A DNA stretch of 58,988 bases, the filler included, from Dirinaria sp. TL-2023a (Eukaryota): assembly GCA_051941275.1 (NCBI GenBank). It is 5 parts of 5 records of this genome, joined end to end, with 100 filler letters (N's around TTAATTAATTAA, not from the genome) between each part and the next. Parts side by side here need not be neighbours in the genome. Positions count along the whole stretch, not along the records: positions 1 to 11,746 come from JAVEBF010000821.1; 4 more parts are not named here. The stretch is one strand, 5' to 3'. The notes beneath the pieces are model-generated. The model had not been told where the DNA came from. It made no database searches and worked only from the letters and a program-made list of their open reading frames with translations. Positions 1-47,301 of the stretch are shown piece by piece. A program made the translations under genes and the position numbers. Position 1 is the first letter of the stretch, and the number at the start of each line of letters is the position of its first letter.

Positions 1-1025
1 ATCTCATACGGCATACCCCTGAACCAACCCTCCCCCAGCCCGCGAGCAATGAACCGAAACATGGCGTGCGCAAACTCCTGGTTCCCGACTTTCGTGCCGG
101 GGACTTTCTTCTGCCAGGAATCGAGGGCGTCGGTGCCTTTATGCGCGCCGCCGACGAACGTGGTGGACTTGGTGATGGAGGGTGGGATCTCGGCGTAGTC
201 TTTGAAGGGTTGGATGAGGGTGATTTGGCCCGTCGAGTGGTCGAGGACGGAGGGGGAGCAGATGTTCTGGTAGCTGTTGTGCTCGCTGATGCAGTCGAAG
301 GCGTACTCGATTTTACCTTTGCTCTGGGCTGCCTCTTGCAGGTTCGAGACGAGTTTTTCGTTGCCGACGCGGTAGTCGAGCGCTATGTCCCCCTTGGAGG
401 CGTCGAGGTAGGATTCCACGTGTGGAATGCCTTTGCCAGCTACGGCGATGATAGGGTGGATGTTGGAAAGCGAGGCCAATTGGATGGCATAGGTACCGAC
501 TGCAGAGGCACCGCCGTAGATTATGAGGGGTATAGGCGTGCTTGTTGGGTGCCAGGGGAGGGGGAGGTTCAGCTTTTGGTAGAGGCCGAAAGCGGCGGTC
601 ATGGCAGCTAGAGGTAGGGTGGCGCCCTCTGTTCATTACGGTCGGCATTAGCACGGTGGATCTCATGTGAGCAGGCGTGATTTCTTTTGCCCACCTTCGA
701 AAGAGGTCTGTTTGGGAAGATGGAAGGTAGTGTGCGCCTCCGCGACAGCATACTCCGCAAAGCTACCATGCGGAGCCATCATTTGGTGGAAAGCCGCAAC
801 GCGGTCTCCAGGCTTGAACTCCACGACATTGGAGCCGACCGTATGGACAACGCCAGCGATGTCGTCGCCAGTATTAAGCTCATCGCCTGCTTCGGCACGT
901 TTCCAATCTTTGGGATTGGAGCCGGAAAGGACAACTTTGATCGCCACTTGACTCTCGCCTGGGACTGGAATGGGTGAATCAATTATAGAGACTTTGGGCC
1001 CTTTGGAAACGATCGCTTCTTTCAT
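1..1025 (-). CDS. Zinc-independent MDR-family oxidoreductase (enoyl-reductase/quinone oxidoreductase-like), 3' end runs off the window
   Basis: Exon 1 (1025-695) MKEAIVSKGPKV..SGSNPKDWK..GDDIAGVV..VGSNVVEFKPGDRVAAFH..GSFAEYA. Intron 694-629 (GTGGGC..GCTAAT..CAG). Exon 2 reads EGATLPLAAMTAA..LIIYGGASAVGTYAIQLA (NADPH-binding motif) and stays open to base 1. Confidence 0.9.
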
Positions 1026-1747
1026 TTTGATGGACGGAAATCGAGGAATGGGCGGATTTTTGGTGGAGAGCTATTACTGAGGTAAGAGATTCTTTATACC
1101 ACCAATGATTGTATTGAGACACTATTAGGAGCGAGTAGTGAGAATGCAAATTGCAAAAATAACGAGGGGAAAGGCGCCTTTAGATTTCGTGATTCCGTGA
1201 TTTCAAAGCTGTAGGATCTCCATGTGGGGTTGCTGCAGATGCCGTGTACCTTAACGCATGGCATGCCGGCAACCATACCGGGCTAAGTAAAGCGTACATT
1301 GACTTGGAGATCGCTAGCAGGATCGCCGTCGCCATTATTGTAGCCCCTAGACAAGCGTAAGGATGTTAGAACATCGGAGGACTTCGGTTCAGACGAATCA
1401 ACATAGAACGTAATGGTTCGACTTGACGCACCTCGATTCAGCTTCCAATACCTCCATGCAAAGCTATGCGAAATGAGCCATGCTTTCGATCCGATATGCG
1501 ACTTTTACAAGATGTTTCTCGATGGGAACTTCCAGTCGTCACACACAAGCAGACTTCTTCTACCGCCAGGGGTCGCTTTTGTGCTCAAGCCCACGATCTG
1601 TATCTGCTACAATGGGGATTTTCTTTTATTGACGGCAAGCCATAGCTGTAAACAATCAAATTTTGAAGGAGCTTTTTGCGAAGTGATGATGTGAACATTA
1701 TCCGTATACTGGGACACCAGTTCTGTGATATAAGGCATACAGTACGG

Positions 1748-2709
1748 TCATTTCTGCCGTATTTGCTTTGGCTTGCGCTTTTTAAACACTATGCCGGCTG
1801 AAGGTTCTTCAGTATTTCTCGAGGGTTCTTCATGAGCCGGATGAACAGCCAACGGAGAGTCGGAAGCTTCGCTCTTGACGTGAGGCATCGCGGGCAACAA
1901 TCCATGGTCGGCGCTTGCAACAGGATTCGCATGGTCTGCAGAAGCATCAGCTAACTTTGTAATTGGCGATGGTTGTGATTCTGCCGTATTTGGACTCGTC
2001 TTGCTGCCGGCGAGTAGTGCATCCAGATCCACGTCTTCATGCGTCCCCGGATATGTCCGGGTAGTCGAGCCCCATCCCTTCTTGGCCACTCGCTCACCGG
2101 CCTCTTCTTCCTCCTCTTGACCCTCGTGTTTACGTTTTCGTACGCCAATATTGACTGTTGCGGGCCCGATGTCTGCTGGCGAAGGTTTGACGTCTTTCCC
2201 ATCTTCCTCTTTCTTGACGTCCTCATGCACTAAACCCTCCGACACGGTCTGCCAATCTCCAGCCATGGCCATCTCGCGCCGGAAGTCTTCCGGAACAGCT
2301 ACACCCATGGCAGCCAGTTGCGCGAGCTGCTGCTTTCTTTCCGCCTGCGTGGCTTGCCTTGCTCCATTTGGGATCGACGGTATAGCAGTCTTTCGCTGCC
2401 ATGGCGGTCTGTTACTGTCCGATGCTGATGGGCTTCCAGACACAACACCGTTCAGCCTATCGACTTCGTCTTTTGCTCGCTGCTTGTCTCTTTCTTCCCG
2501 CTCGTTGCCCCTATGTAAGTCTCGTATGAAGCGCCTGATGTTGCCTTGATGCTTGGGGGTTGCCTCGTGATTGGTTCGTTCAGGTTTGGTGTCACGGACG
2601 AAGGTTTTGCAGTGCTTGCACCAGTATTTTGGCTATAAAAATCAGTCATCAATGGTGAACTGCAGGTGAGCTGTATGAAACGTACAGTAGACTTCCAATA
2701 CTCAGACAT
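1748..2709 (-). CDS. U1/matrin-type C2H2 zinc-finger protein (WBP4/FBP21-like spliceosomal factor)
   Basis: Exon 1 2709-2686 (MSEYWKST), intron 2685-2633 (GTACGT..TAG), exon 2 PKYWCKHCKTFVRD..NHEATPKHQGNIRRFIRDLHR, continuing into ORF 1748-2443 and ending IVFKKRKPKQIRQK. Confidence 0.85.
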
Positions 2710-2841
2710 GGTTAGCAAATTCAGGGATTGAGATGATAAAGTTGGAGTTATGCAGGTACTTGATTGTCGGGTTCTTAGGTAGGACATCAAGGGACGGAAG
2801 GGTGCTTACTGCTTAGGAATGTCCTGATTGATACTCGTTCT

Positions 2842-2885
2842 TTTCTTTCAGGTTTCTTTCAGGTTTCTTTCAATTTTCTTTCAAT
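2842..2885 (+). repeat. 11-bp tandem repeat, 4 copies (TTTCTTTCAGG x2, TTTCTTTCAAT x2) in the divergent promoter
   Basis: Read directly from the sequence. Confidence 0.8.
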
Positions 2886-3162
2886 ACCTGATGTCATGGT
2901 CAGGGTTAGGGTTGCAAGGCCAGGGAAGGTGCAAGCGCCAAGCGCGCATTTAATAGAAGGCCTCGAAGGCGTCACAAGGCGATTCTTCGGTTCCAGCCGC
3001 AGATCCAGATCTCAACTTTCTTTTCAACCAAATTTCAACTTCTAAACAATCCAATCTGAATCCTCGTCCGAGAAAGTCTTGCCCATTGGTGAGCTTTCCT
3101 AACTACAGCTGAACCCAATGTAAAGCAATCCTGTATCTTCGACTGTCGACTTTGCAACGAGT

Positions 3163-4497
3163 ATGGAAATCTCCGCTGTACGCGGAGCGTCAGCTTCACT
3201 GCGACATTCGTACTGCTCAACGCCCGCACGATTTGCCTCGAGAGCCTCTCAAGCGCCTAAAACCATTCCTTTCATAAACAGATCATTACTGAGAAGTCTC
3301 GGGACAAATTCGTATCTTGCCGCTCCTCCAGGATCGCTGCTCAGCAGCGGTTCCGGTTCCAATGCCGGCTCCTCTCCAGCCTCTTACTTCCCTCGTCCCT
3401 CTCTGCCCGCAAATACCATCATTCGCTTCGTGCCTCAGCAGACGGCATGGATAGTCGAACGGATGGGGAAGTTCAACCGCATATTGGAACCCGGTCTAGC
3501 CATTCTCGTACCATTTCTCGATCGGATAGCATATGTTAAGAGCCTGAAAGAGGCGGCCATGGAAATTCCGTCGCAAAGTGCCATTACGGCCGATAACGTC
3601 ACTTTGGAGCTTGACGGGGTTCTTTACACAAGGGTTATAGATGCGTACCGAGCGAGGTAGGCCTTTTTTCTTACCCAAGACACAAAAGCTCAGCTGATAA
3701 TTTGAGGTAGCTACGGGGTCGAAGACGCCGAGTACGCCATCTCCCAACTCGCTCAAACAACGATGCGTTCAGAAATCGGTCGACTCACACTCGATCACGT
3801 CCTACGGGAGCGAGCAGCTCTGAATACGAACATCACCGAAGCAATCAATGAAGCAGCCCGCGATTGGGGCGTCGTGTGCCTAAGGTACGAGATTCGGGAT
3901 ATCCACGCTCCGGAAGGCGTCGTGGCCGCTATGCACCGACAGGTGACGGCAGAGCGGAGCAAGAGAGCCGAGATCTTAGATAGCGAAGGGCAGCGGCAAA
4001 GCGCCATCAACATCGCCGAAGGCCGGAAACAAAGTGTCATCCTTGCCTCAGAGGCATTGAAATCAGAACAAGTAAACATCGCGAGCGGCGAAGCAGAAGC
4101 GATCCTGGTGCGAGCCAAGGCCACGGCGAAGGGCATCGACGCCGTCGCACAGAGCATCAGAGACGGCAAAGAAAGCGCCCACGGCGCCGTCAGCCTGAAC
4201 GTCGCCGAGAAATACGTCGAAGCATTTGGAAGACTCGCTAAGGAGGGCACCGCAGTCGTGGTCCCCGGCAACGTGGGGGACATGGGCGGCATGATAGCCA
4301 GTGCAATGGCCGTGTACGGGAAAGTAAGCGAAGGCCAAAAGAAGGGCGCTGCCGGCTTCCAGGAACGCGATGATACGAAAGTTCTCGAGACCGGGGGAGA
4401 CCAGGCGGCCGCGGAAGCGGATGCGTCGGTGGGAAAGACGGATGAAGTGGCGAAGAGCGTCTTGCAAGGGTTTGAGGAGACGAGGAAGAAGAGGTAG
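3163..4497 (+). CDS. Stomatin-like SPFH/Band-7 protein (SLP-2 type, probably mitochondrial)
   Basis: IRFVPQQTAWIVERMGKFNRILEPGLAILVPFLDRIAYV..SAITADNVTLELDGVLY; intron 3657-3710; SYGVEDAEYAISQLAQTTMRSEIG..WGVVCLRYEIRDI..AERSKRAEILDSEG. Arg/Ser-rich N-terminus resembles a presequence. Confidence 0.93.
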
Positions 4498-6268
4498 TTC
4501 TGGCTCGCTGGCTGGCTGCAAAATCCCGCGGACTGTAGGAATTATATTATTCAGTTGTATTCCACTCATCGATATTTTTAGGCATGGTTTGGAGGTTGGG
4601 GGGGGGCGAGGATTTGTAGATTCAGGACATCACTACTTCACTTCAAAAAGCTGTATGGTTTTAAAGCTACGATGATTCCCAGATACTCGATATTTTTCTT
4701 CTTTTTTTTTCTTTATGTACATGTAAGATTTCCCATATTTGACGTGTGTGTGCGAAATCTTGACAGCGTAAGATGGGATAAAAAACCTGCCCTCCCTCTC
4801 TGGGTCGCTCACACCCTTTTATTCCGATTTGGTTTCAGTTCTATGATATACACATGTCCACGTTCTCAGATGAAGAAATTAAAAACATCGCCGACAAAGT
4901 CAAATAATAATACGCTGGGGAAAATGAGATTATGTTTTGTTTGGTTTGCATTTCTCGTCCTCTCATTTCAAGTCTCTTTCAGGAGAGGTGGTTGCACGGA
5001 TAGATATTTATATATTGAGATAGATTTGTGGGTTTTCAAATAGGACGATTTTTCTGAGGTGATGGTTATTCGTGTGCGCTGGCTCTTCAGTCAGAACTGT
5101 TTTCCACAGCGCTCATGGTGCTGGCACGGAGGCTATTCATATCATCCTTCCAAACGCAGTTTGCGATTCCAGCTCGTCAATCATCGATCCCCATAGCGAC
5201 ATCAGAGACCCTAGCTTACATCCGCTTTGAAACAGCGCTTGATGGTTGATGCAGTAAGATACATGTAGGTAGCAAGATTCGTGCTTAGAAGCGATGAGAG
5301 AGAGAGGGATTGGAATACCTTTTTACAGTGGCTATTACTAACTATCATTAAACATAAGGACGCAAACGTCCACACGGCATGGGGCTTCGCTAATTAAATC
5401 TCTTGTGGTAGAATGAGTTAGTTGATTCGATGTCGAACAATGGATCGTCTTTTAATTCAGTGATTTTGAAAACTTATTGAATATCGTGTACGTTGTCGAG
5501 TAGTAGTCTTGAACAATGTTGTTGAAGATACCTGGAACTCCTTATCTTATGATAAGTATTCAACAGCTGTGTTTCACGCTTTGCTGTCCCTCTTTTTCTG
5601 TGCGATCGTTGAATGTATTGGCTAATGCTACCTACAACAATTTTGTCACGAGGATGCGATATAGTACGTCTTTTTCGTGCAGGACTTCGGCTCGTACACA
5701 AGATCAGACCTATATTTTTACTTGGTGTTCAGTACAATTTTGGGCTGAGAAATTGAAGTACTTTTGATGAGAGTTCAAGATGTTTTCAATCTAGCCGATT
5801 CCCTACATTTTGAGGTCCTATTCCAATTTAAGCATTGGGCACTTTTTAGTATGTCAATTGTTTGTCGAGTATGCAATCTTGACGAAATGAGTTTCATAGG
5901 TTCAACTGACGACATCGAAATCGCCAAAACGAATAAGGGTATTAACGCCCTAACGCGGGAACGGCAAGCTTGCTGTCTGGGACAAAAAGTCTGAGAAAGC
6001 TTCATCGATAGAGCTAGGATTGACGATTGCTGATGACCAGCGAGCGATATCACCAGTAAGGTCGGGCTGGAGCGGTATTTACCATGGCAGGGCTAAGACC
6101 AGGTCCGAAATCTTCAGGGTGATCATCTAGTAGCCAACAATTACTTTTCATTGTGGCTGATCCGATCGTGAAGGTGCTTGGCCAATGGAACAAAATCACA
6201 TCAGCATGAGTTCGCACGTCTGATCATACTAATCTGAATGAATGTGCGATTAGACTTACAGTTGTACC

Positions 6269-7317
6269 CTAAGCTAAGAACGTCTTGAGCATTTCCGGGT
6301 CGTTGATGTTTCCATTGAATTGGCGACTGAAGCCTCGCGCCGTAACATCTTTGTATCGATGTTTGGATGATAGTCCCGATCGTTCCCGACCCGACGCGTC
6401 TCCGTTCATCTGCCATGCAGTGCATTCAGAAGAATTCTTCTCGTAGGAATGATGGTAATTCCACGGCGTGGGTTTGTCGTTAGTGTCATCTTCATATTCT
6501 CTGGCTTCGTTCGGCGTCTTGTCCTTTCCATATGTTATTGACACTTACAGCGCGGCAGATTAGCTCTATTATATCAGTAAATTGGTGCTCGAGGTTACCC
6601 TTTTGCGGATTTGAGGTCACCTCGTCCTTGACACTTAGACCCTTGACTTGATCCCTGAGCATTGATTCTGTCTCAGATCTCTGTTTGGGCTTTTCATTGG
6701 AACTTGTCTGAAATCGTTTACTTGCCTGTGATAAGCAGGTTAACCAGTGACACTAAAATTTACGAAGATAGGGCGCCTCAACGCTAGACTTACAGAGCTC
6801 TCAATATCCACCACCTGTAACTTCTGGGAGTCCTGCCTCTCAGGCATCTTGGCCACATGTCCGGTCACAAGCTTGCCGACACCACCTTGGATATCACCCA
6901 GGAGATCCATGTGTACCAAGGATATGCATAAAAGAAGACTGCTTTTCTCCTTCTCAAGCTGGTCAAGCTTTGCAAGAATCTCGTTTTCTTTGCTAGACCT
7001 CAAGGCTTTTCAACGATTCCGTATAGATCCACCAGTCTAGTCAAATGTGACCTAATTGATATTGCTGACAAGCTCTTGGCCAGTTCAAGTGTGCTCCTAA
7101 CCTGCGTCTTGAGATTGGTTGTCTGAAGCGAGTAATGTTGTTCAATGAGCCGTGCGGTGTCTGCGAGGTGTACCACGTGCTCTACACGCCGTTGGATCCT
7201 TCGGGGCGCGGCTCGAAAGCGTCGACAGATCTCGGAGATAGATTCTGAGATTTTGAGGCTATACAAGATTAACTGCGAGGCGCTTGCCAAAAGCCCCACA
7301 ACTTCGATTCCAGATAT
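6269..7317 (-). pseudogene. Disrupted HeLo-like/SesA-type effector gene with C-terminal two-repeat HET-s-related amyloid motif
   Basis: Begins (ATA)SGIEVVGLLASASQLILYSLKI, with ATA in place of ATG at 7315-7317. Frameshift near 7055-7062; stops at 7052-7054, 7037-7039 and 7010-7012. Then KENEILAKLDQLEKEKSSLLLCIS. Introns 6793-6726 (GTAAGT..CAG) and 6598-6544 (GTAACC..GCTAAT..AAG) keep frame into a last exon containing HSYEKNSSECTAWQMNGD and HRYKDVTARGFSRQFNGN. Confidence 0.75.
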
Positions 7318-8030
7318 GATGTTTAGACTTTGGGTTCAGCCGCGCAATGAAGAGTGATCGATATTTGGCGTTTTCAACCCTCGTCTTTGCATGATCGACT
7401 TGGGCCAATGGCTCCAGCAACCTGCAGGCAGGGTTCCCTGCATGATCTCGGCCAATCTTAATGCTCATGCATTGTAAAACATGTTGACACTGATTGCTTC
7501 CGTTGGTAATTCCTCTAGAAGAGCTTTCGGACAATATAAACGATCATATACAGCAATAATCACCCGCCAACTGTGGGGTTCCACTTTTGGCGCAGTTTTC
7601 GCTGTTCGACAAGAATCAACTATACGAGCATATTGAATATCAGGTACAGAACTTGAAATCTTCTTATAAGGATACAGAGTGGTAGCATATCCTTTATGGC
7701 TTCTGCCATTACATTGATTGCCGTGTGACAAGGCTACTGCAAGCGCAGAGGTTTGCGTTTGAAAAGCACCGAAACCCTACTGCCATACCTGACTTGAGAT
7801 CTAGAAGAACCCAGCAAGCCATGGTTTCCATGCATCCTTGTTGGTAAAAATTGAATCGATAAATCCTGACCGTTACTTAGTCCCAAAGAATGTAGCACTG
7901 TGGACTTTATGGAAGGGCGTACATTCTGGGTATGGAGGTTGACTCGATAATTGTGCTCTCTTGTCCTAGCTATATCGGAGTCGAACTTTGATCGGTGGCG
8001 GGAACAGCGCTCCGGATTTTTTCGAGCACT

Positions 8031-9722
8031 TCATGATTCCCTGCGCCAAATTTCTTTTGTAAAGGTTTCTGCTGCTGGGAATGTGTTTTCAATCACCCAG
8101 TAAAGCCGGTCGACATGACCATTTAGTGCCAGGCCAAATTGAAAAAGGTAAAAATTAAGAGGATAGTTCACCATCATTCTTGCACGTCTCGCAGCTTCGT
8201 CATGCGTCATCAGCCAGATGAATGTGTCATAGTGGTAATGGCGTAGTGGATGGGACTGAGATTTTCTTCCCTGAAATGCTAGATGCAGACCATCTGCCTG
8301 CTGTGTGACCTCTACAAAGAAAGTTTTAATTGGATTAAAATAACGGCCAACGTATTGTCCAAGGTCCAAACTAGGTCTTGTATTCTCCACTCTTTCGGAA
8401 CTCAGTTTGGAGGCCATCGATGGCACCAGAGCAAGCATCCTCTTGGCACTGCCTTGCGCCAGCTGGATGAAATCGTTCCGTTGTGGGACGTCGAAGACAG
8501 TCTCCACAAGTAGTTGCGAAATCCAGTCCGGGCAGTCGTTCAGCGCAACCGCACTCTGCAGAACGACGATCGCCGTCATTCTTTCCGGAAAAGTATAGAC
8601 GTTGGTCGTGGATCCTGGCATAAGGCCCTCGTGATAAAGACGGAGGCGTGATGTGCCACCAACCCCCACAGTCGGCAGATCCATCTGTAGCCTACCATTG
8701 ATTCCGAGCTTTCCAAGCACGCCAGGCAGCTGGCAGCGTACCCAGCCAAGGCCATAGGCGTGCTCTCTAAGCGTGCTCCCTTCCATGGAGTTGTGAGCTT
8801 TGATCAATGTGGGACACTGTTTGAATGGAGAACCATCAGTACATGTTGACTGTAGCTGAATTTGCGTGTTACATGTCTCCATGAAGACTTGATAGAGATG
8901 AAGAAGATCGTTGACGGTGCTTTTGACGCCGGCAGCTCCCTCGAGCGCTGTCTCCGACTTGACTTTTGGCGGCGGAACAGGATAGAGCTCCCTGTCCTCC
9001 AGCACACAATAGCTTACGCCAAAATTGTCGTCATTTGAGACATCATCCGTTGTGGTTCGCTCTAGATGTAATGGATCGAATATCTTAGTCCTCAGATAGC
9101 AGCCAAACTCCATACCCGAAAGCTTTTCCACCACGAGGCCAGCTACACCATACCCAAAGTTGCTGTATATGAAAGAAGCTCGAAAAAACCCTTCTTGGTT
9201 TGCATAGTTGAATGTCTCAATTTCTTGACCCCTTCGGAGAAGAACTTCGTTATAGTCCTGGAAAAAGAATGTATCAGGAGAGATCACTCCAGAGCGATGG
9301 GATAATAGGTCCACTATAGTCATCTTTCTCCCAATTTCGCCGTGACCCTTCCCAAAGTCTGGGAGAATCGTATGCACTGGTGTGTCCCAACGCAAGAGGC
9401 CATCTTCAACTAGAACACCTACCGCGGCAGCAGTCAAAGCCTTAGTCATGGAGTTGATGCTGTACAAGGTATCGGAACCTGGGGGTGTCTTGGCAGCAAT
9501 ATCGCGGTAACCATAGTTGACTTTGTGGATAACCTCGCCATGATGAAGCACCCCTATTGATAAGCCTGGGCTGCAAGATATTTCACAGATCTGATTGATT
9601 ATAGGTTCGAGACCTCCAAGCCTTTCGGAGACCTTGCGCAAAACTTGTGTCGACTGCCTGTAAGATGTCAGAGGGTATTTTGGCAAGCTGTGGCCATTGC
9701 GTTCGAAATAATGAACATACAT
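8031..9722 (-). CDS. Beta-lactamase/AmpC-family serine hydrolase with C-terminal DUF3471-like domain
   Basis: SxxK (NSMTK), LLSHRSG, YxN (YSNFGY), YGLGW and HEG motifs; C-terminal YVGRYFN..LRHYHYDTF. First ATG at 9722; probable 63-nt intron 9720-9658. Confidence 0.9.
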   Translation of the reverse strand: MYVHYFERNGHSLPKYPLTSYRQSTQVLRKVSERLGGLEPIINQICEISCSPGLSIGVLHHGEVIHKVNYGYRDIAAKTPPGSDTLYSINSMTKALTAAAVGVLVEDGLLRWDTPVHTILPDFGKGHGEIGRKMTIVDLLSHRSGVISPDTFFFQDYNEVLLRRGQEIETFNYANQEGFFRASFIYSNFGYGVAGLVVEKLSGMEFGCYLRTKIFDPLHLERTTTDDVSNDDNFGVSYCVLEDRELYPVPPPKVKSETALEGAAGVKSTVNDLLHLYQVFMETCNTQIQLQSTCTDGSPFKQCPTLIKAHNSMEGSTLREHAYGLGWVRCQLPGVLGKLGINGRLQMDLPTVGVGGTSRLRLYHEGLMPGSTTNVYTFPERMTAIVVLQSAVALNDCPDWISQLLVETVFDVPQRNDFIQLAQGSAKRMLALVPSMASKLSSERVENTRPSLDLGQYVGRYFNPIKTFFVEVTQQADGLHLAFQGRKSQSHPLRHYHYDTFIWLMTHDEAARRARMMVNYPLNFYLFQFGLALNGHVDRLYWVIENTFPAAETFTKEIWRRES

Positions 9723-11436
9723 GAAGCTTTGTCTGATGCTACCCACGATGCTAGATGGTATTTGGTTTTCAGAAAGCAAGGATATGGAGTAGATGTATGA
9801 TGCAAGATTGTATTGACTTAGAGACCATCGAGTAAAGAGTCACGAACCTTTGTAAATGATCTGTGTTTGCCCGCTAGCATGCGGCTATACAGCATCCTTA
9901 CTCGTATTCACCCCTTTTCTTGTTTCACCTACTTTCTTATCAGGGTCAGGATTACAGAAAATATCCTCGGCTATTGCTGCTCCTAACATTGGGGACCTTT
10001 GAAACGCTTCACCAAACTGAACTGGATTCACCAGGTTCCATTTTGAAAGGCAGATTGACTTCTCTCATCCTCAAGCAATACACTTAGAAACCTCAACGGC
10101 GTGTACGGTAATCAAGGTCACGGAAAGTCATTGTGGACAGCGGACCAGATTAGTATGTGGAGCCTTGGACTTAACAGTTGCGTTCAGAGTAAAGTAAAAA
10201 CCGATGGACGGTGCATCGAGCACATAGGACGCTAGGATACCTTACTCCTTGTGAGAAGAGGTACCCGATATGCCTCGATGGGCTGGACGTGCCCAATGAG
10301 CTTCCTGACGTGGCGGTATTAAGTACTTAGGTTCTTTGGCGAATACTTGCTAATCAACCTGACCCAACATGCACGAACTGGCCGCCTTCATTCATTTGCA
10401 GGTAACCTAGCCATGCAATCACACCCATGGATGGTGTGGAGGTAAATGTTGGTAATCTTTTCTTCCATGTTACGGTGTTTCAAATATTTCCAATAGAATA
10501 CGCTATTCTGGGTGGGCTTGACCATGAAGTCGGTGTTGGAAAGTACCTAAGCAGTGGGAGGCTGCAAAGTAGCATGAATTTTAGCATAAAAGGGGGAAAA
10601 ACTACTCAGGTTTTTAAAATACATGTGAAACTAGCGGCTTGACTAGTCGGGCCGAACCCCGACTAAGCCCTGGTACCGATGATTTCAACCATTTGCCGAA
10701 ATAGTCCCATCGTGAACAACGTGAAAATAATCATCTCGAGAAGACCCACAAACGATCTACAGCCGTACAGCGAGAACCACAGGCTGCTAAAGCTCTCGAG
10801 CACAGCTCGCGAGTCAAAAAGGCCTTCCATAACGAGGGAAAAAATCTTGGAAGCCCAAAGTTACACTTCGATGAAGCTCTAAAGGGTGCTACAATGCTTG
10901 AAAGTCAGCCGTATCAAAGTCGGCAATATTTCCCTCGCGCTGGACGCCAGATGTCGAGGGTTCAAACCACTGACTCAGTCCGGTAAAGCAAATGCTATGA
11001 GCAAGAATGCGAACGAGATTATAGAACTCATCTCCGGATTCTCTAGACTCAACACATCAGCTGGGAGCATTGATACGCACTACGGCGTTTCGCTGATGAG
11101 AGTAATTTGCATTCAAGCATCGCAAGCTACACGAGCGCACAGATCAAAACCGCTGAGCCATACTGGATTATGGAAATATAATATTGCTCGCACGCTCTTC
11201 TAGCCGTAGATAGAGCTCAGACTCTTCTCAAGCAATCGCCTTCCCTTCCTATCCAAGGTATACTCAGGAGGTAGCCAACCCTTGCCCCCACCCTAGGACA
11301 CGCAGCAAGCAAGCAAGCAACCCATCTCAAAAAAAAGAAAAAAAGCCCCCTCAAAACCAAAACCTCGCAAACTCAACATCCCACCTTGTCTTCCTCAACC
11401 CTTGCCCCCCCTTTTCTCCTTCCATTCCATTTCCTA

Positions 11437-11746
11437 TCACCGAGTCACCTTCCTAACCCCTGTCGTCCCCGTCCTCCTAGGCGCCGTACACGCGGAAGAA
11501 CGGTACTCGCTCGTCATGCGTTCCAACCTCCTCCTCGACTCTTCCATTCCCTGTTCATGTCTCTCTGCCTCCTCATCATGCTCATCCCGCTGGCGGGATT
11601 CACTGCTCGATTCACGTTGGTCTGAAAAACGGGTTTGTGTTTGGGAGGAGGAGTTGGAGGAGGACACGTGATCGCGGAGACAAGTAGGGCAGTAGCGGGT
11701 TGAGAAGGAGAAGGGGGGGTCGGTGAAGGTGTATGTTGGGAGCGGG
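11437..11746 (-). CDS. Possible 3' end of an unidentified gene cut by the contig end
   Basis: Frame is open from the spacer: PLPTYTFTDPPFSFSTRYCPTCLRDHVSSSN..EESRRRLERM..*; GC-rich, coding-like. No family recognised. Confidence 0.35.
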
Positions 11747-11846
11747 NNNNNNNNNNNNNNNNNNNNNNNNNNNNNNNNNNNNNNNNNNNNTTAATTAATT
11801 AANNNNNNNNNNNNNNNNNNNNNNNNNNNNNNNNNNNNNNNNNNNN
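11747..11846. other. Artificial contig spacer N44-TTAATTAATTAA-N44
   Basis: 12-mer giving stops in all six frames, flanked by Ns. Confidence 0.98.
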
Positions 11847-13436: not shown

Positions 13437-14673
13437 GCTGGCAACACCATGGAAATTTCTCGATTCCAACCCACACCGAAGTTGCTACGTGGAACATGCA
13501 AGAAGAACGCGTGCTGCTGCTGAGTCACGTGAATTCTCAGACTAGCATGTATATTAGCCAAGCTAACCACTTGCAGAGTTTCCTGATCTTTCGTCGGACA
13601 CCTGTGACGGACATTTCCTTAATAGGAATGACCAATGGAAAACGGCAGCTGCTCATATTACTTACCGATCAGTGATTCATGTACTAGACCTCGCTCTGGC
13701 TATTTTCCAGGCTCCTGAATCTACAAGCATCCTGTAGGGCCCAATCTCTCATTCCACCCACCCGTTGAAGCCAGCGGCCACAATATTTGACCTATCCTCC
13801 GCTCATCCTCAACTCCTGGTCTCGTCGTCCTGGTTCAGATTTTTCGTCTGATCATAGAGCGTTGTGGTGTTGGCTACAAGAACGAAACTGGATGAAAGTT
13901 CATAGTGCACTGTTGAAGCTACTCAGATGAGACCGGTGAGCGAGCTAGTTAGGTGGTGGGAATAAATGGGAAGGAAGAAAGCCGGCTAAAAGGATTCTCT
14001 CGGAGATCACAAGCATGTATCATTGAAACTTCGTACTCGAATCTTTTGTTAGCAACAAAAAAAAGGTACTAAAGCCAAGTCACTGTTATGTAGCCCGCTT
14101 AGGGGCCTATTGCTGATGATATGGAAGATGTATTGCTTTCCTACATTTGCCTGTACATACATGCTTTGAGGCCATGCTCGCGCCATGCAGGGGGGTATTT
14201 GTGTGGATACCATAGATCCAGATACGATCTTGCTCTGAAAACATTAACTGCTCAGGTCTCGTTGCCGCTGGATAACATCAGCGAGTCTGATGTTCGCAAG
14301 CCATTCTTCTGCGCGCTGTAAGTCGCAGTCTGAAAATGCTCTGCGACAAAAATATTCCTTTTGAAAAGTGTTGTGAAGTGGAGCCGGGAAAACCGTGGTG
14401 GACCTCGAAGCGTGAGTGCTGTACTGCTCTATGAAGTGGTTCATACTGGGTAAAATGATGCTGCCCAAATTGGACCTTGGCCGATGCCCTTTCAGAGTCT
14501 GATTACGCAAGTTTGAGCTCATCAAAATCGGAGCGCGGCTCGGAAAGCTCGAGCAAAAGCAGACTCGGTTGAGCAAAAGCTTGTTATTCTCGGATTCTGT
14601 GACTCGTGGATGTTGGTTTGACACAGACAATCCCTCGGCATCGAAGCTACAACTCTTGAGCATCAAACCAAGA

Positions 14674-23582: not shown

Positions 23583-23682
23583 NNNNNNNNNNNNNNNNNN
23601 NNNNNNNNNNNNNNNNNNNNNNNNNNTTAATTAATTAANNNNNNNNNNNNNNNNNNNNNNNNNNNNNNNNNNNNNNNNNNNN
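23583..23682. other. Artificial contig spacer
   Basis: N44-TTAATTAATTAA-N44. Confidence 0.98.
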
Positions 23683-35402: not shown

Positions 35403-35502
35403 NNNNNNNNNNNNNNNNNNNNNNNNNNNNNNNNNNNNNNNNNNNNTTAATTAATTAANNNNNNNNNNNNNNNNNNNNNNNNNNNNNNNNNNNNNNNNNN
35501 NN
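35403..35502. other. Artificial contig spacer
   Basis: N44-TTAATTAATTAA-N44. Confidence 0.98.
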
Positions 35503-47201: not shown

Positions 47202-47301
47202 NNNNNNNNNNNNNNNNNNNNNNNNNNNNNNNNNNNNNNNNNNNNTTAATTAATTAANNNNNNNNNNNNNNNNNNNNNNNNNNNNNNNNNNNNNNNNNNN
47301 N
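47202..47301. other. Artificial contig spacer
   Basis: N44-TTAATTAATTAA-N44. Confidence 0.98.

What the first reader, a model, noticed from the sequence alone, without database searches (positions are those of the whole stretch)
6269..6451. Hidden two-repeat HET-s-like amyloid (HRAM) motif at the C-terminus of a HeLo-like/SesA-type protein
Seen: the last exon has two pseudo-repeats 30 aa apart, R1 HSYEKNSSECTAWQMNGDA and R2 HRYKDVTARGFSRQFNGNI (shared H-x-Y-x10-Q-x-NG[DN]). They are joined by a G/S-rich loop and followed by a short aromatic tail (NDPEMLKTFLA*). Two canonical introns place this exon in frame with an N-terminal domain starting with the hydrophobic helix SGIEVVGLLASASQL. Established: Podospora HET-S/HET-s has a HeLo domain plus a two-repeat beta-solenoid prion domain (NSAKDIRTEERARVQLGN / NSVETVVGKGESRVLIGN, aromatic tail) triggered by an NLR carrying one repeat. 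Inference: this is a cell-death effector of an amyloid signalling system, possibly with a new motif variant and an unusually long charged linker. No single ORF in the track reveals it.
Basis: partly seen in the sequence, partly recalled or inferred. Interest (0 to 1): 0.85.

Follow-up and report, generated by a model that had tools for sequence, protein, structure and literature searches.

The report
Broken HET-s-like amyloid effector gene
A lichen fungus carries a decayed copy of a cell-death effector gene whose tail is predicted to fold into the same two-layer amyloid as the Podospora HET-s prion; intact relatives show the family is real but of a known kind.

Summary
Alone they are not beyond chance (661 of 1000 shuffles). 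They do match a repeat profile built from 22 other proteins (E 7.7e-11). They are conserved as 2 or 3 copies ending Q-h-N-G-[DN] in a family of about 300 fungal proteins.

AlphaFold2 folds the window's last 62 residues as a two-rung beta-solenoid (pLDDT 87). Of 48,161 solved chains, only the HELLF and HET-s prion fibrils resemble it (Z 6.2 and 6.0). The N-terminal domain of the family is a four-helix bundle that matches Pfam SesA in 41 of 150 members. RNA contigs from a close relative show the last exon spliced to the upstream exons.

So the HRAM/SesA effector reading holds for the family. This copy, however, is broken. It has ATA in place of the start codon, a 1-nt deletion and two in-frame stops in the N-domain. 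No NLR partner lies on its 11.7-kb contig; the window is five unlinked contigs joined by spacers. It is a new variant of a known kind, of moderate interest.

The parts
7315..7317 (-). Position of the initiator codon: ATA here, Met in relatives
   Evidence: M1 is nearly invariant (90% or more) in alignment A1. There is no in-frame Met between the upstream stop (7336-7338) and the end of this frame.
7060..7314 (-). Exon 1, first part: N-domain helices 1-3 (SGIEVVGLLASASQL...LSAI)
   Evidence: tblastn gives 66-67% identity to P0002 and P0003 residues 1-86. It corresponds to helices 3-31, 38-60 and 67-95 of the P0029 model.
7052..7059 (-). Frameshift: 8 nt where relatives have 9 (codons L-D-Q)
   Evidence: The frame changes between 7060 and 7051. 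The relative's RNA contig has one extra letter behind 7059. A loose end there translates to LDQVTS, as in the homologs.
7037..7039 (-). In-frame stop TAG where relatives have H or Y
7010..7012 (-). In-frame stop TGA at the conserved Trp of the family's R-Y-W-K segment
   Evidence: A1 consensus RYWK.
6794..7051 (-). Exon 1, second part (other frame): end of helix 3, helix 4 (KENEILAKLDQLEKEKSSLLLCISLVH...) and start of the linker
   Evidence: tblastn gives 62% identity to P0002 residues 90-178. The relative's RNA contig covers 6968-7179 without a joint.
6726..6793 (-). Intron 1, 68 nt, GTAAGT..CAG
   Evidence: Joint 6724|6793 in RNA contigs of runs X1 and X2; splice-site letters.
6599..6725 (-). 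Exon 2: charged, disordered linker (ASKRFQTSSNEKPKQRSETESMLRDQVKGLSVKDEVTSNPQK)
6544..6598 (-). Intron 2, 55 nt, GTAACC..AAG, with a split codon G|TG
   Evidence: Joint 6544|6601 with one letter between, in both RNA runs. This is my reading of that joint; it keeps the frame.
6272..6543 (-). Last coding exon (open, 91 codons counting the split codon), which holds the prion-forming region
   Evidence: P0029 residues 264-328 match it with tblastn E 1.6e-9.
6395..6457 (-). Repeat R1 (21 aa, YHHSYEKNSSECTAWQMNGDA): H3, Y5, Q16, N18, G19, D20
   Evidence: Repeat HMM 12.7 bits. Strands 4-6, 9-10, 15-18 and 21 in the model.
6368..6394 (-). Loop between the repeats (SGRERSGLS, 9 aa)
   Evidence: It lies within the 6-18 aa range given for HRAM loops in PMC4518210 section 4.
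6305..6367 (-). Repeat R2 (21 aa, SKHRYKDVTARGFSRQFNGNI): H3, Y5, V8, A10, R15, Q16, N18, G19, N20
   Evidence: Repeat HMM 25.3 bits. Strands 34-36, 39-40, 45-48 and 51 in the model.
6269..6304 (-). C-terminal tail NDPEMLKTFLA plus stop; predicted short helix
   Evidence: Helix 54-61 in the model. The family tail resembles ..EAI[KR]AFF.
6174..6259 (-). Intron in the 3' untranslated region (86 nt, GTAAGT donor)
   Evidence: Joint 6173|6260 in both RNA runs; letters. The acceptor in the window reads AC, so its exact end is uncertain.

Best explanation
The locus (minus strand, about 7317 to 6269) is a decayed copy of a fungal amyloid-signalling cell-death effector.

Intact members of the family have three parts. 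The first is an N-terminal four-helix SesA-type domain of about 150 residues with a hydrophobic first helix; it belongs to the HeLo/HeLo-like/SesA group of membrane-targeting death domains. The second is a disordered charged linker of about 100-190 residues. The third is two (in some members three) 21-residue HRAM-type repeats followed by a short aromatic tail.

Inferred mechanism, by analogy with NWD2/HET-S and FNT1/HELLF. An activated NLR that carries one copy of the motif templates the two repeats into a two-rung beta-solenoid. That refolding releases the N-domain to attack membranes and kill the cell.

In this Dirinaria genome the N-domain reading frame is destroyed: ATG has become ATA, there is a 1-nt deletion, and there are TAG and TGA stops. 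The part from helix 4 through the amyloid exon is still open. The copy is most likely a young pseudogene that can no longer kill.

Shown here: the sequence features, the family conservation, splicing in a relative, the lesions, and the predicted folds. Inferred: amyloid formation, NLR templating, membrane attack and loss of function.
For: Lesions. Four homologs align to the window in two frames, with I for M1 and two stops at conserved positions (letters). A relative's RNA contig has the missing letter at 7059 and runs unspliced across 6968-7179.

Family. phmmer with P0008 found 304 proteins at E<=1e-3 and 115 at E<=1e-10. SesA PF17107 matches 41 of 150 members at E<=0.01, best 2.6e-7. PigL_N (PF17111) matches 4, RPW8 2 and MLKL_N 2. 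One member joins the domain to NPHP3_N and ankyrin repeats. The AlphaFold2 model of P0029 has four helices over residues 3-150, with pLDDT mostly 80-97.

Motif. 12 of the 46 stored proteins of 240 aa or more, counting the window's own model, carry 2 or more Q-x-N-G-[DNHSE] in their last 110 residues, and 5 carry three. Q16, N18 and G19 are invariant in both repeats across 8 aligned tails. The profile of these tails finds 22 proteins, all of effector size except the window's own 728-aa model, in at least 3 classes of Ascomycota. The register fits the HRAM definition in PMC4518210: G19, aromatic residue at 5, loop of 9, H at 3 as in HRAM3, Q at 16 as in HRAM5. E6/K6 and E11/R11 are oppositely charged between the repeats, at positions where HET-s has salt bridges.

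Fold. AlphaFold2 on the window's 62 residues gives pLDDT 87.3 and pTM 0.67, with the same strand pattern in both repeats. The top 4 Foldseek hits of 350,542 chains are HET-s and HELLF fibrils (TM 0.52-0.63). VIA-align finds only 2 of 48,161 chains at Z>=2: 6eka (Z 6.2, rmsd 2.0 over 53) and 2kj3 (Z 6.0, rmsd 2.5 over 61). The tail profile has no sequence match in the PDB at E<=10.

Expression. RNA contigs 90-95% identical to the window are spliced at both coding introns.
Against: No NLR and no third copy of the motif lie on the 11.7-kb contig or on the four other contigs in the window. The profile search found no NLR-sized protein at E<=10.

Pfam HET-s_218-289 does not match the exon at E<=1. 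By PMC4518210, only 38 of 155 HRAM proteins match it.

R1 is polar at the core positions 8, 10, 16 and 18 (N, S, Q, N) and scores only 12.7 bits.

In the full-length P0029 model the tail is disordered (pLDDT 40-58). AlphaFold2 was trained on the HET-s fibril, and no shuffled control could be run.

The N-domain fold matches are within the noise for helical bundles (best Z 11.8). The window's own N-terminal fragments and 4 close homologs stay under the SesA cut-off.

The four lesions rest on one metagenome assembly. No DNA run was found to verify them.

The letters of the relative at the two stop codons were not shown, because table 3 was cut. The start region 7296-7511 has no RNA cover.
Confidence: 0.7

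Rival explanations
1. The gene is intact in the organism. Either the four lesions are errors or strain mixtures of the metagenome assembly, or the cell bypasses them as in the NCBI model P0001. That model uses a 59-nt intron at 7051-6993 and an upstream start shared with the beta-lactamase-like gene.
For: The source is a metagenome-assembled genome (name given by the source). A GT..AG segment exists that removes both stops and restores the frame, and NCBI's pipeline predicted it (P0001). No DNA reads could be laid.
Against: Four independent lesions lie within 308 nt, while the neighbouring ORFs are open (602-aa beta-lactamase-like, band-7). The 59-nt skip would delete about 20 conserved residues, including the R-Y-W-K segment at the helix 3/4 junction. 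Its donor reads GTCACA. The relative's transcript runs unspliced through it. The P0001 model drops the conserved first helix and fuses two unrelated genes.
Confidence: 0.12
2. The copy is broken as a killer but is kept as a tail-only product. Translation from the first Met after the last stop (in VH-M-DLLGD, near 6910) would give a protein with the linker and the amyloid region and no death domain. Such a protein could act as a harmless prion or as a decoy that soaks up NLR templating, as the inactive het-s allele does next to HET-S.
For: All four lesions fall in the first 103 of about 308 codons. The remaining 205 codons, both coding introns' splice sites and the six motif-defining residues stay intact. 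The chance of that clustering is about 0.012, or 0.037 after a first hit (post hoc). H3, Y5, Q16, N18 and G19 are unchanged against the relative.
Against: There is no RNA or protein evidence from this strain. Among the differences from the relative listed in exons 2-3, 15 codons are non-synonymous and 7 synonymous, which shows no clear purifying selection. R1 has lost the typical V8 and R15 that the relative and P0168 keep. A young pseudogene explains the same facts.
Confidence: 0.08
3. The conserved Q-h-N-G-[DN] repeats are not an amyloid switch. They would be a short linear motif in a disordered tail, for example a binding or modification site, and the beta-solenoid model would be an AlphaFold2 artefact.
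For: The tail is disordered in the full-length model. Several core positions are polar. There is no Pfam or PDB sequence match. No partner NLR was found.
Against: The period is 21 residues, loops are 3-11 residues, G19 is invariant, residue 5 is aromatic and hydrophobic residues sit at 17 and 21. The domain architecture and tail are the same as in described HRAM proteins. The structural match to the HET-s and HELLF fibrils is exclusive.
Confidence: 0.08

Closest known systems
HET-S/HET-s prion-forming domain with the NLR NWD2 (Podospora anserina; PDB 2rnm, 2kj3)
   Same: Two imperfect 21-residue repeats sit at the C-terminus of a death-domain protein, with G at position 19, a flexible loop between the repeats and an aromatic tail. 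The predicted two-rung beta-solenoid superposes on 2kj3 (Z 6.0, rmsd 2.5 over 61 residues). Opposite charges sit at positions 6 and 11 of the two repeats.
   Different: The N-domain matches SesA, not HeLo. A linker of about 100 residues separates domain and repeats. The loop is 9 residues, against 15. Position 16 is Q and position 18 is N where HET-s has hydrophobic residues, and the ending is N-G-[DN] rather than G-N. Pfam PF11558 does not match. No adjacent NLR was found. This copy is broken.
HELLF/FNT1 (Podospora anserina; HELLF prion fibril, PDB 6eka)
   Same: It is the best structural match of the tail model (Z 6.2, rmsd 2.0 over 53 of 53 residues; Foldseek TM 0.57/0.63). It is an HRAM-type effector distinct from HET-s. 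The pairing with FNT1 is taken from the abstract of 10.1101/2020.07.22.215483, seen in the listing.
   Different: The N-domain family differs (HeLo-like, by the literature). There is no sequence similarity at profile level. The partner NLR is known there and unknown here.
HRAM3 and HRAM5 subfamilies (Daskalov et al. 2015, PMC4518210)
   Same: H at position 3 and an aromatic residue at 5, as in HRAM3. Q at position 16, as stated for HRAM5. N18-G19-[DN]20 endings occur in some listed sequences, and one NLR r0 motif ends S-R-Q-H-N-G-N (supplementary table). A tail of the ..AFF type also occurs in listed sequences.
   Different: None of the 155 listed proteins holds any of the six pentamers Q[IVL]NGN, Q[IML]NGD that were searched. 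The combination H3 + Q16 + N18 is not one of the five described groups. Many members here are longer than that study's 310-aa cut-off. Some members have three repeats.
SesA/SesB/het-eN sigma-motif system (Nectria haematococca), Pfam PF17107
   Same: The N-terminal domain family is the same by Pfam (41 of 150 members). That domain also occurs at NLR N-termini.
   Different: The C-terminal motif here is HRAM-like, not sigma. The sigma association of SesA is recalled from the literature and was not tested here.

Membership tests
HRAM (HET-s-related amyloid motifs) | Two imperfect repeats of about 21 residues within the last 80 residues | tested here: met
   R1 and R2 are 30 residues apart in the last 62 residues. 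Relatives are spaced 28-32 (two repeats) or 24-26 (three repeats).
HRAM (HET-s-related amyloid motifs) | Conserved Gly at position 19 (beta-arch) | tested here: met
   G19 is invariant in both repeats of 8 aligned tails and in 40 of 40 distinct units, which were selected with a Q.NG pattern.
HRAM (HET-s-related amyloid motifs) | Hydrophobic residues at core positions 5, 8, 10, 16, 18 | tested here: inconclusive
   Position 5 is Y in both repeats. Position 8 is N/V, position 10 is S/A, and positions 16 (Q) and 18 (N) are polar in both. Q16 is described for HRAM5, and N18 occurs in listed HRAM sequences. In this family the hydrophobic residues sit at 17 and 21 instead.
HRAM (HET-s-related amyloid motifs) | Loop of 6-18 residues and a short aromatic C-terminal segment | tested here: met
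   The loop has 9 residues. The tail is NDPEMLKTFLA, with F.
HRAM (HET-s-related amyloid motifs) | Beta-solenoid fold, one rung per repeat | tested here: met
   This is a prediction only. AlphaFold2 gives pLDDT 87.3. The only PDB neighbours are HELLF and HET-s fibrils. There is no experimental test and no shuffled control.
HRAM (HET-s-related amyloid motifs) | A cognate NLR with a single N-terminal copy (r0), usually encoded next door | tested here: not met
   No NACHT or NB-ARC domain and no third motif copy lie on the 11,746-bp contig or the four other contigs. No NLR-sized hit appeared at E<=10. The rest of the genome is not held, so a distant partner is untested.
HRAM (HET-s-related amyloid motifs) | Match to Pfam HET-s_218-289 (PF11558) | tested here: not met
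   No match at E<=1 for the last exon. The family is not among the 25 listed for A1. It is not a strict criterion: 38 of 155 HRAM proteins match it, per PMC4518210.
SesA (PF17107), within the HeLo/HeLo-like/SesA death-domain group | N-terminal domain matches the SesA profile | tested here: inconclusive
   For the family, 41 of 150 members match at E<=0.01, best 2.6e-7. The closest homologs score 16.7-25.1 bits, under the 26.3 cut-off. The window's own fragments give no hit at E<=1. Homology of the window to the family is clear (E 3e-30 to 1.5e-11).
SesA (PF17107), within the HeLo/HeLo-like/SesA death-domain group | The same domain is also used as an N-terminal effector domain of NLRs | tested here: met
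   One of 150 members carries NPHP3_N, a winged helix and ankyrin repeats behind it. A 1024-aa protein, P0091, is in the list.
HeLo (PF14479) / HeLo-like (PF17111) | Profile match of the N-domain | tested here: not met
   HeLo gave no hit in the window fragments or in 8 homologs at E<=1. PF17111, now named PigL_N, matches only 4 of 150 members at E<=0.01.
HeLo/MLKL/RPW8-like four-helix death fold | Structural similarity of the N-domain | tested here: inconclusive
   The model is a four-helix bundle. Plant NLR coiled-coil domains are among the hits: Rx-CC Z 11.4, NRG1.1 CC-R Z 9.1, MLA13 Z 8.6. All are under the noise level of about 13 that the tool states for helical bundles.
Functional protein-coding gene | Start codon and uninterrupted reading frame | tested here: not met
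   ATA at 7317-7315, a frame change at 7059-7052, TAG at 7039-7037 and TGA at 7012-7010.

The most novel reading that the evidence does not exclude
Two linked readings remain open. First, the Q16-h-N18-G19-[DN] repeats may define a sixth HRAM subfamily that has gone undescribed, carried by SesA-type effectors with long linkers in lichen-forming and other Pezizomycotina, with two-rung and three-rung forms and its own still unseen NLR partners. Second, and boldest, this Dirinaria copy has lost its killing domain but keeps the amyloid exon open. It may survive as a tail-only prion or decoy, comparable to het-s beside HET-S, that tunes NLR-triggered cell death in a symbiotic fungus. The probability given is for this second reading. 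I put the first at about 0.45.
Probability: 0.08. Interest if true: 0.75.

Novelty: new variant of a known kind. Interest (0 to 1): 0.4.

Why it matters
Amyloid templating between NLRs and death effectors is a central model of fungal immunity-like cell death, and HET-s is the best understood functional prion.

This family adds a coherent, widely spread HRAM variant on a SesA-type domain, with Q and N at two core positions, a long linker and two or three rungs. A 2022 survey lists HRAM with HeLo and HeLo-like effectors only (PMC9815663 section 24). The family occurs in lichen-forming fungi, and a close relative expresses and splices the gene in a lichen metatranscriptome. Regulated cell death has hardly been studied in that symbiosis.

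The polar core would test how much sequence the HET-s fold tolerates and where cross-seeding barriers lie.

The locus itself is a broken copy. Its main practical lesson is that the public gene model for it is a chimera with the neighbouring beta-lactamase-like gene.

Tried and rejected
1. Pfam on the four separate exon translations gave only chance-level hits.

2. No whole genome is held for the window, so no genome-wide NLR or r0 search was possible.

3. A word-based search with the last exon alone found only the window's own model.

4. N-domain fold searches gave generic helical bundles by Foldseek (no hit at E<=1e-3). VIA-align Z values were under the noise level for bundles. The A1 profile against PDB sequences gave only 4 chance hits at E 0.34-2.5.

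5. Complex prediction with four copies of the 62-residue tail returned no verdict. The score was 0.01, the alignment was not used and the controls were not run. It counts neither for nor against self-assembly.

I did not pursue it with single proteins, because the known JGI members sit on contigs of 1.1-1.5 kb.

7. The ESM Atlas search with the tail gave a best score of 0.81, below the level that counts as a lead.

8. Earlier scan notes held no look-alike of the tail and no lichen HRAM note.

9. RIP as the cause of decay: the substitution directions against the relative are balanced (G>A 12, C>T 8 against A>G 5, T>C 12 in X1), so there is no RIP signature.

10. I first placed the frameshift in the A-run near 7005 and suspected a second frameshift or a 25-31-nt intron at the exon 2/3 border. 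tblastn and the RNA joints corrected both.

11. A loose motif hit at 14300-14356 lies on another contig and scores at chance with the HMM.

12. Literature searches. 'HRAM' with 'Lecanoromycetes' gave 1 unrelated paper. 'sesA' + 'HET-s' + 'amyloid' + 'lichen' gave 0. The motif pentamers are absent from supplementary file 2 of PMC4518210 and from 11 of 13 supplementary files of PMC9815663 (two files were not searched).
Full report
**What is there.** The finding lies on the minus strand. The open frame 6544-6272 ends in YHHSYEKNSSECTAWQMNGDA - SGRERSGLS - SKHRYKDVTARGFSRQFNGNI - NDPEMLKTFLA, followed by the stop TAG at 6271-6269. The two units are 30 residues apart and share H3, Y5, Q16, N18 and G19 when numbered as 21-residue units. 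Five identities in 21 are not beyond chance: 661 of 1000 shuffles of the exon give a self-pair at least as good. The observation therefore stands or falls with relatives.

**The window is not contiguous.** Four spacers of N44-TTAATTAATTAA-N44 join five pieces of 11,746, 11,736, 11,720, 11,699 and 11,687 bp. The public protein made from this locus (P0001) is recorded on a contig of 11,746. Only 1-11746 is physically linked to the finding. On it lie:
- an ADH_N fragment,
- a U1 zinc-finger gene,
- a band-7/SPFH gene (+ strand, ending at 4497),
- the gene in question,
- a beta-lactamase-like gene (9839-8034, minus strand).

**Gene model.** Two RNA-seq runs of one lichen-metagenome sample hold contigs 90-95% identical to the window, that is, a close relative's ortholog. 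One 831-nt contig covers 6000-6173, 6260-6544, 6601-6724 and 6793-6890.
- The joint 6724|6793 is a canonical 68-nt intron on the minus strand (GTAAGT..CAG).
- The joint 6544|6601, with one letter between, fits a 55-nt intron at 6598-6544 (GTAACC..AAG). It keeps the frame through a split codon and gives ..SNPQK-V-SITYGKDK...
- A third joint is an intron in the 3' untranslated region (6259-6174).

So the last exon really is spliced to the upstream exons. Spliced joints also show that these contigs come from RNA.

**The copy is broken.** tblastn of six family members against the window aligns residues 1-86 to 7317-7060 in one frame and residues from about 90 onward to 7051 downward in another. 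There are four lesions:
1. The codon aligned with the nearly invariant Met1 is ATA, and there is no other in-frame Met.
2. Eight letters at 7059-7052 stand where relatives have nine. The relative's RNA contig has one extra letter behind 7059, and a loose end there translates to L-D-Q-V-T-S, as in the homologs.
3. TAG at 7039-7037 replaces H or Y.
4. TGA at 7012-7010 replaces the Trp of the conserved R-Y-W-K segment.

The NCBI model P0001 (728 aa, named by its source as from a Dirinaria sp. metagenome-assembled genome) hides these lesions in two ways. It skips 59 nt (7051-6993, donor GTCACA), and it borrows the start of the upstream beta-lactamase-like gene, dropping the first helix. The relative's transcript runs unspliced across 6968-7179, so that intron is not supported.

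Some caveats apply. No DNA run could be found to verify the assembly. The relative's letters at the two stops were not shown, because the table was cut. The start region has no RNA cover. Substitution directions show no RIP bias.

**The family and its N-domain.** The first exon finds 8 proteins (E 3e-30 to 1.5e-11). A full phmmer search with the 315-aa Lecanora helva member P0008 finds 304 proteins at E<=1e-3. Many are short, unspliced ORF calls that stop in intron 1.

Pfam SesA (PF17107) matches 41 of 150 members at E<=0.01 (best 2.6e-7). PF17111 matches 4, RPW8 2 and MLKL_N 2. One member joins the domain to an NPHP3_N NTPase and ankyrin repeats, which is an NLR architecture. The closest homologs stay just under the SesA cut-off (at most 25.1 against 26.3 bits), and the window's own fragments match nothing.

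AlphaFold2 on P0029 with the 150-sequence alignment gives four long helices over residues 3-150 at high confidence and a disordered remainder. Fold searches return generic bundles. These include plant NLR coiled-coil domains, but all are under the noise level for helical proteins. I take the domain as SesA-type on the Pfam evidence. Its relation to HeLo rests on the literature (PMC4518210, section 4).

**The tail is conserved and HRAM-like.** Among the 46 stored proteins of 240 aa or more, 12 (counting the window's own model) have two or more Q-x-N-G-[DNHSE] in their last 110 residues, and 5 have three. By eye, others end in related Q-x-h-G-[DN] or other HRAM-like pairs. In an alignment of 8 tails, Q16, N18 and G19 are invariant in both repeats.

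Its profile finds 22 proteins at E<=10. All are of effector size except the window's own 728-aa model. Sources name them as from Piccolia, Lecanora, Diplodia, Lasiodiplodia, Glonium, Acephala and Coleophoma. A close ortholog's exon (P0168) reads YHHSYDNVSSVSFARQVNGDT ... PRHRYKDVTAKDSSREINGNV.

I read parts of Daskalov et al. 2015 (PMC4518210): section 4, passages of section 5, and supplementary file 2 (part 1 plus searches). They define HRAMs by the following:
- a 21-residue unit;
- Gly at position 19;
- hydrophobic residues at 5, 8, 10, 16 and 18;
- R/K at position 15;
- position 3 as N (HRAM1), Q (HRAM2) or H (HRAM3);
- Q at 18 (HRAM4) or at 16 (HRAM5);
- loops of 6-18 residues;
- an aromatic tail.

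The window's repeats fit the register. They have H3, Y5, R15 in R2, Q16, G19 and a loop of 9, and E6/K6 and E11/R11 are opposite charges at salt-bridge positions. They are polar at 16 and 18, and R1 is also polar at 8 and 10.

N18-G19-[DN] endings and one NLR r0 motif ending S-R-Q-H-N-G-N occur in that paper's table. None of its 155 proteins holds the six searched pentamers. Many members of the present family exceed its 310-aa cut-off.

Wojciechowski et al. 2022 (PMC9815663; I read the outline and sections 19 and 24) list HRAM with HeLo and HeLo-like effectors.

**Predicted fold.** AlphaFold2 on the window's 62 residues with the 8-row alignment gives pLDDT 87.3 and pTM 0.67. Strands lie at 4-6, 9-10, 15-18 and 21, and again at 34-36, 39-40, 45-48 and 51, followed by a short helix.
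- Foldseek's four best of 350,542 chains are HET-s fibril entries and the HELLF fibril (TM 0.52-0.63, E 0.23-1.2).
- VIA-align finds exactly two of 48,161 chains with Z>=2: HELLF 6eka (Z 6.2, rmsd 2.0, 53 residues) and HET-s 2kj3 (Z 6.0, rmsd 2.5, 61 residues).
- The tail profile has no sequence match in the PDB.

This is strong computational support. AlphaFold2 has seen these fibrils in training, though, and I could not run a shuffled control.

**Partner.** No NACHT, NB-ARC or NPHP3_N domain and no third copy of the motif lie anywhere in the window. No NLR-sized protein reached E<=10 in the profile search, but a single 21-residue match could hardly reach that level in a database of 5.8 billion. 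Earlier notes of this scan say that the same genome holds several NLR genes elsewhere (not tested by me). The partner remains the main gap.

**Verdict.** Most likely (0.7) this is a young pseudogene of a SesA-type, HRAM-bearing amyloid-signalling effector.

The rivals are:
- an assembly error or a bypass by splicing (0.12);
- a retained tail-only product (0.08). All four lesions fall in the first third of the gene, with post hoc p of about 0.01-0.04, but the listed differences from the relative are 15 non-synonymous to 7 synonymous;
- a motif that is not an amyloid switch (0.08).

The system is of a known kind. The motif signature, the SesA pairing, the long linker and the three-repeat forms make it a new variant. 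Interest is moderate.

Noticed in passing
window 11747-11846, 23583-23682, 35403-35502, 47202-47301: Artificial spacers (44 N, TTAATTAATTAA, 44 N) join five separate contigs of 11,746 to 11,687 bp in descending size. Gene neighbourhood arguments are valid only within each piece.
   Followed up: yes
window 6269-9839, minus strand (public model P0001): The public 728-aa protein model fuses the beta-lactamase-like gene (PF00144 plus DUF3471, 9839-8034) to the broken effector gene. It drops the effector's first helix and skips 59 nt that hold the lesions. It is a chimeric prediction.
   Followed up: yes
window 6174-6259, minus strand: The relative's transcripts remove an 86-nt intron just downstream of the stop codon, in the 3' untranslated region. 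The donor GTAAGT is present in the window, but the acceptor reads AC here.
   Followed up: partly
proteins P0047, P0061, P0066, P0077, P0079: Five family members carry three consecutive repeats spaced 24-26 residues, that is, a possible three-rung solenoid with very short loops. One is named by its source as from Coleophoma crateriformis.
   Followed up: partly
protein P0169 (381 aa, JGI metagenome): Two copies of the same motif sit at the N-terminus (residues about 5-55) of a protein with a long low-complexity remainder and no Pfam domain. It is either a different architecture or a mis-called ORF.
   Followed up: no
window 4590-4740: The intergenic stretch downstream of the band-7 gene holds a G9 run and T-rich runs. 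GC content is low (0.41-0.44) from about 4500 to 6500.
   Followed up: no
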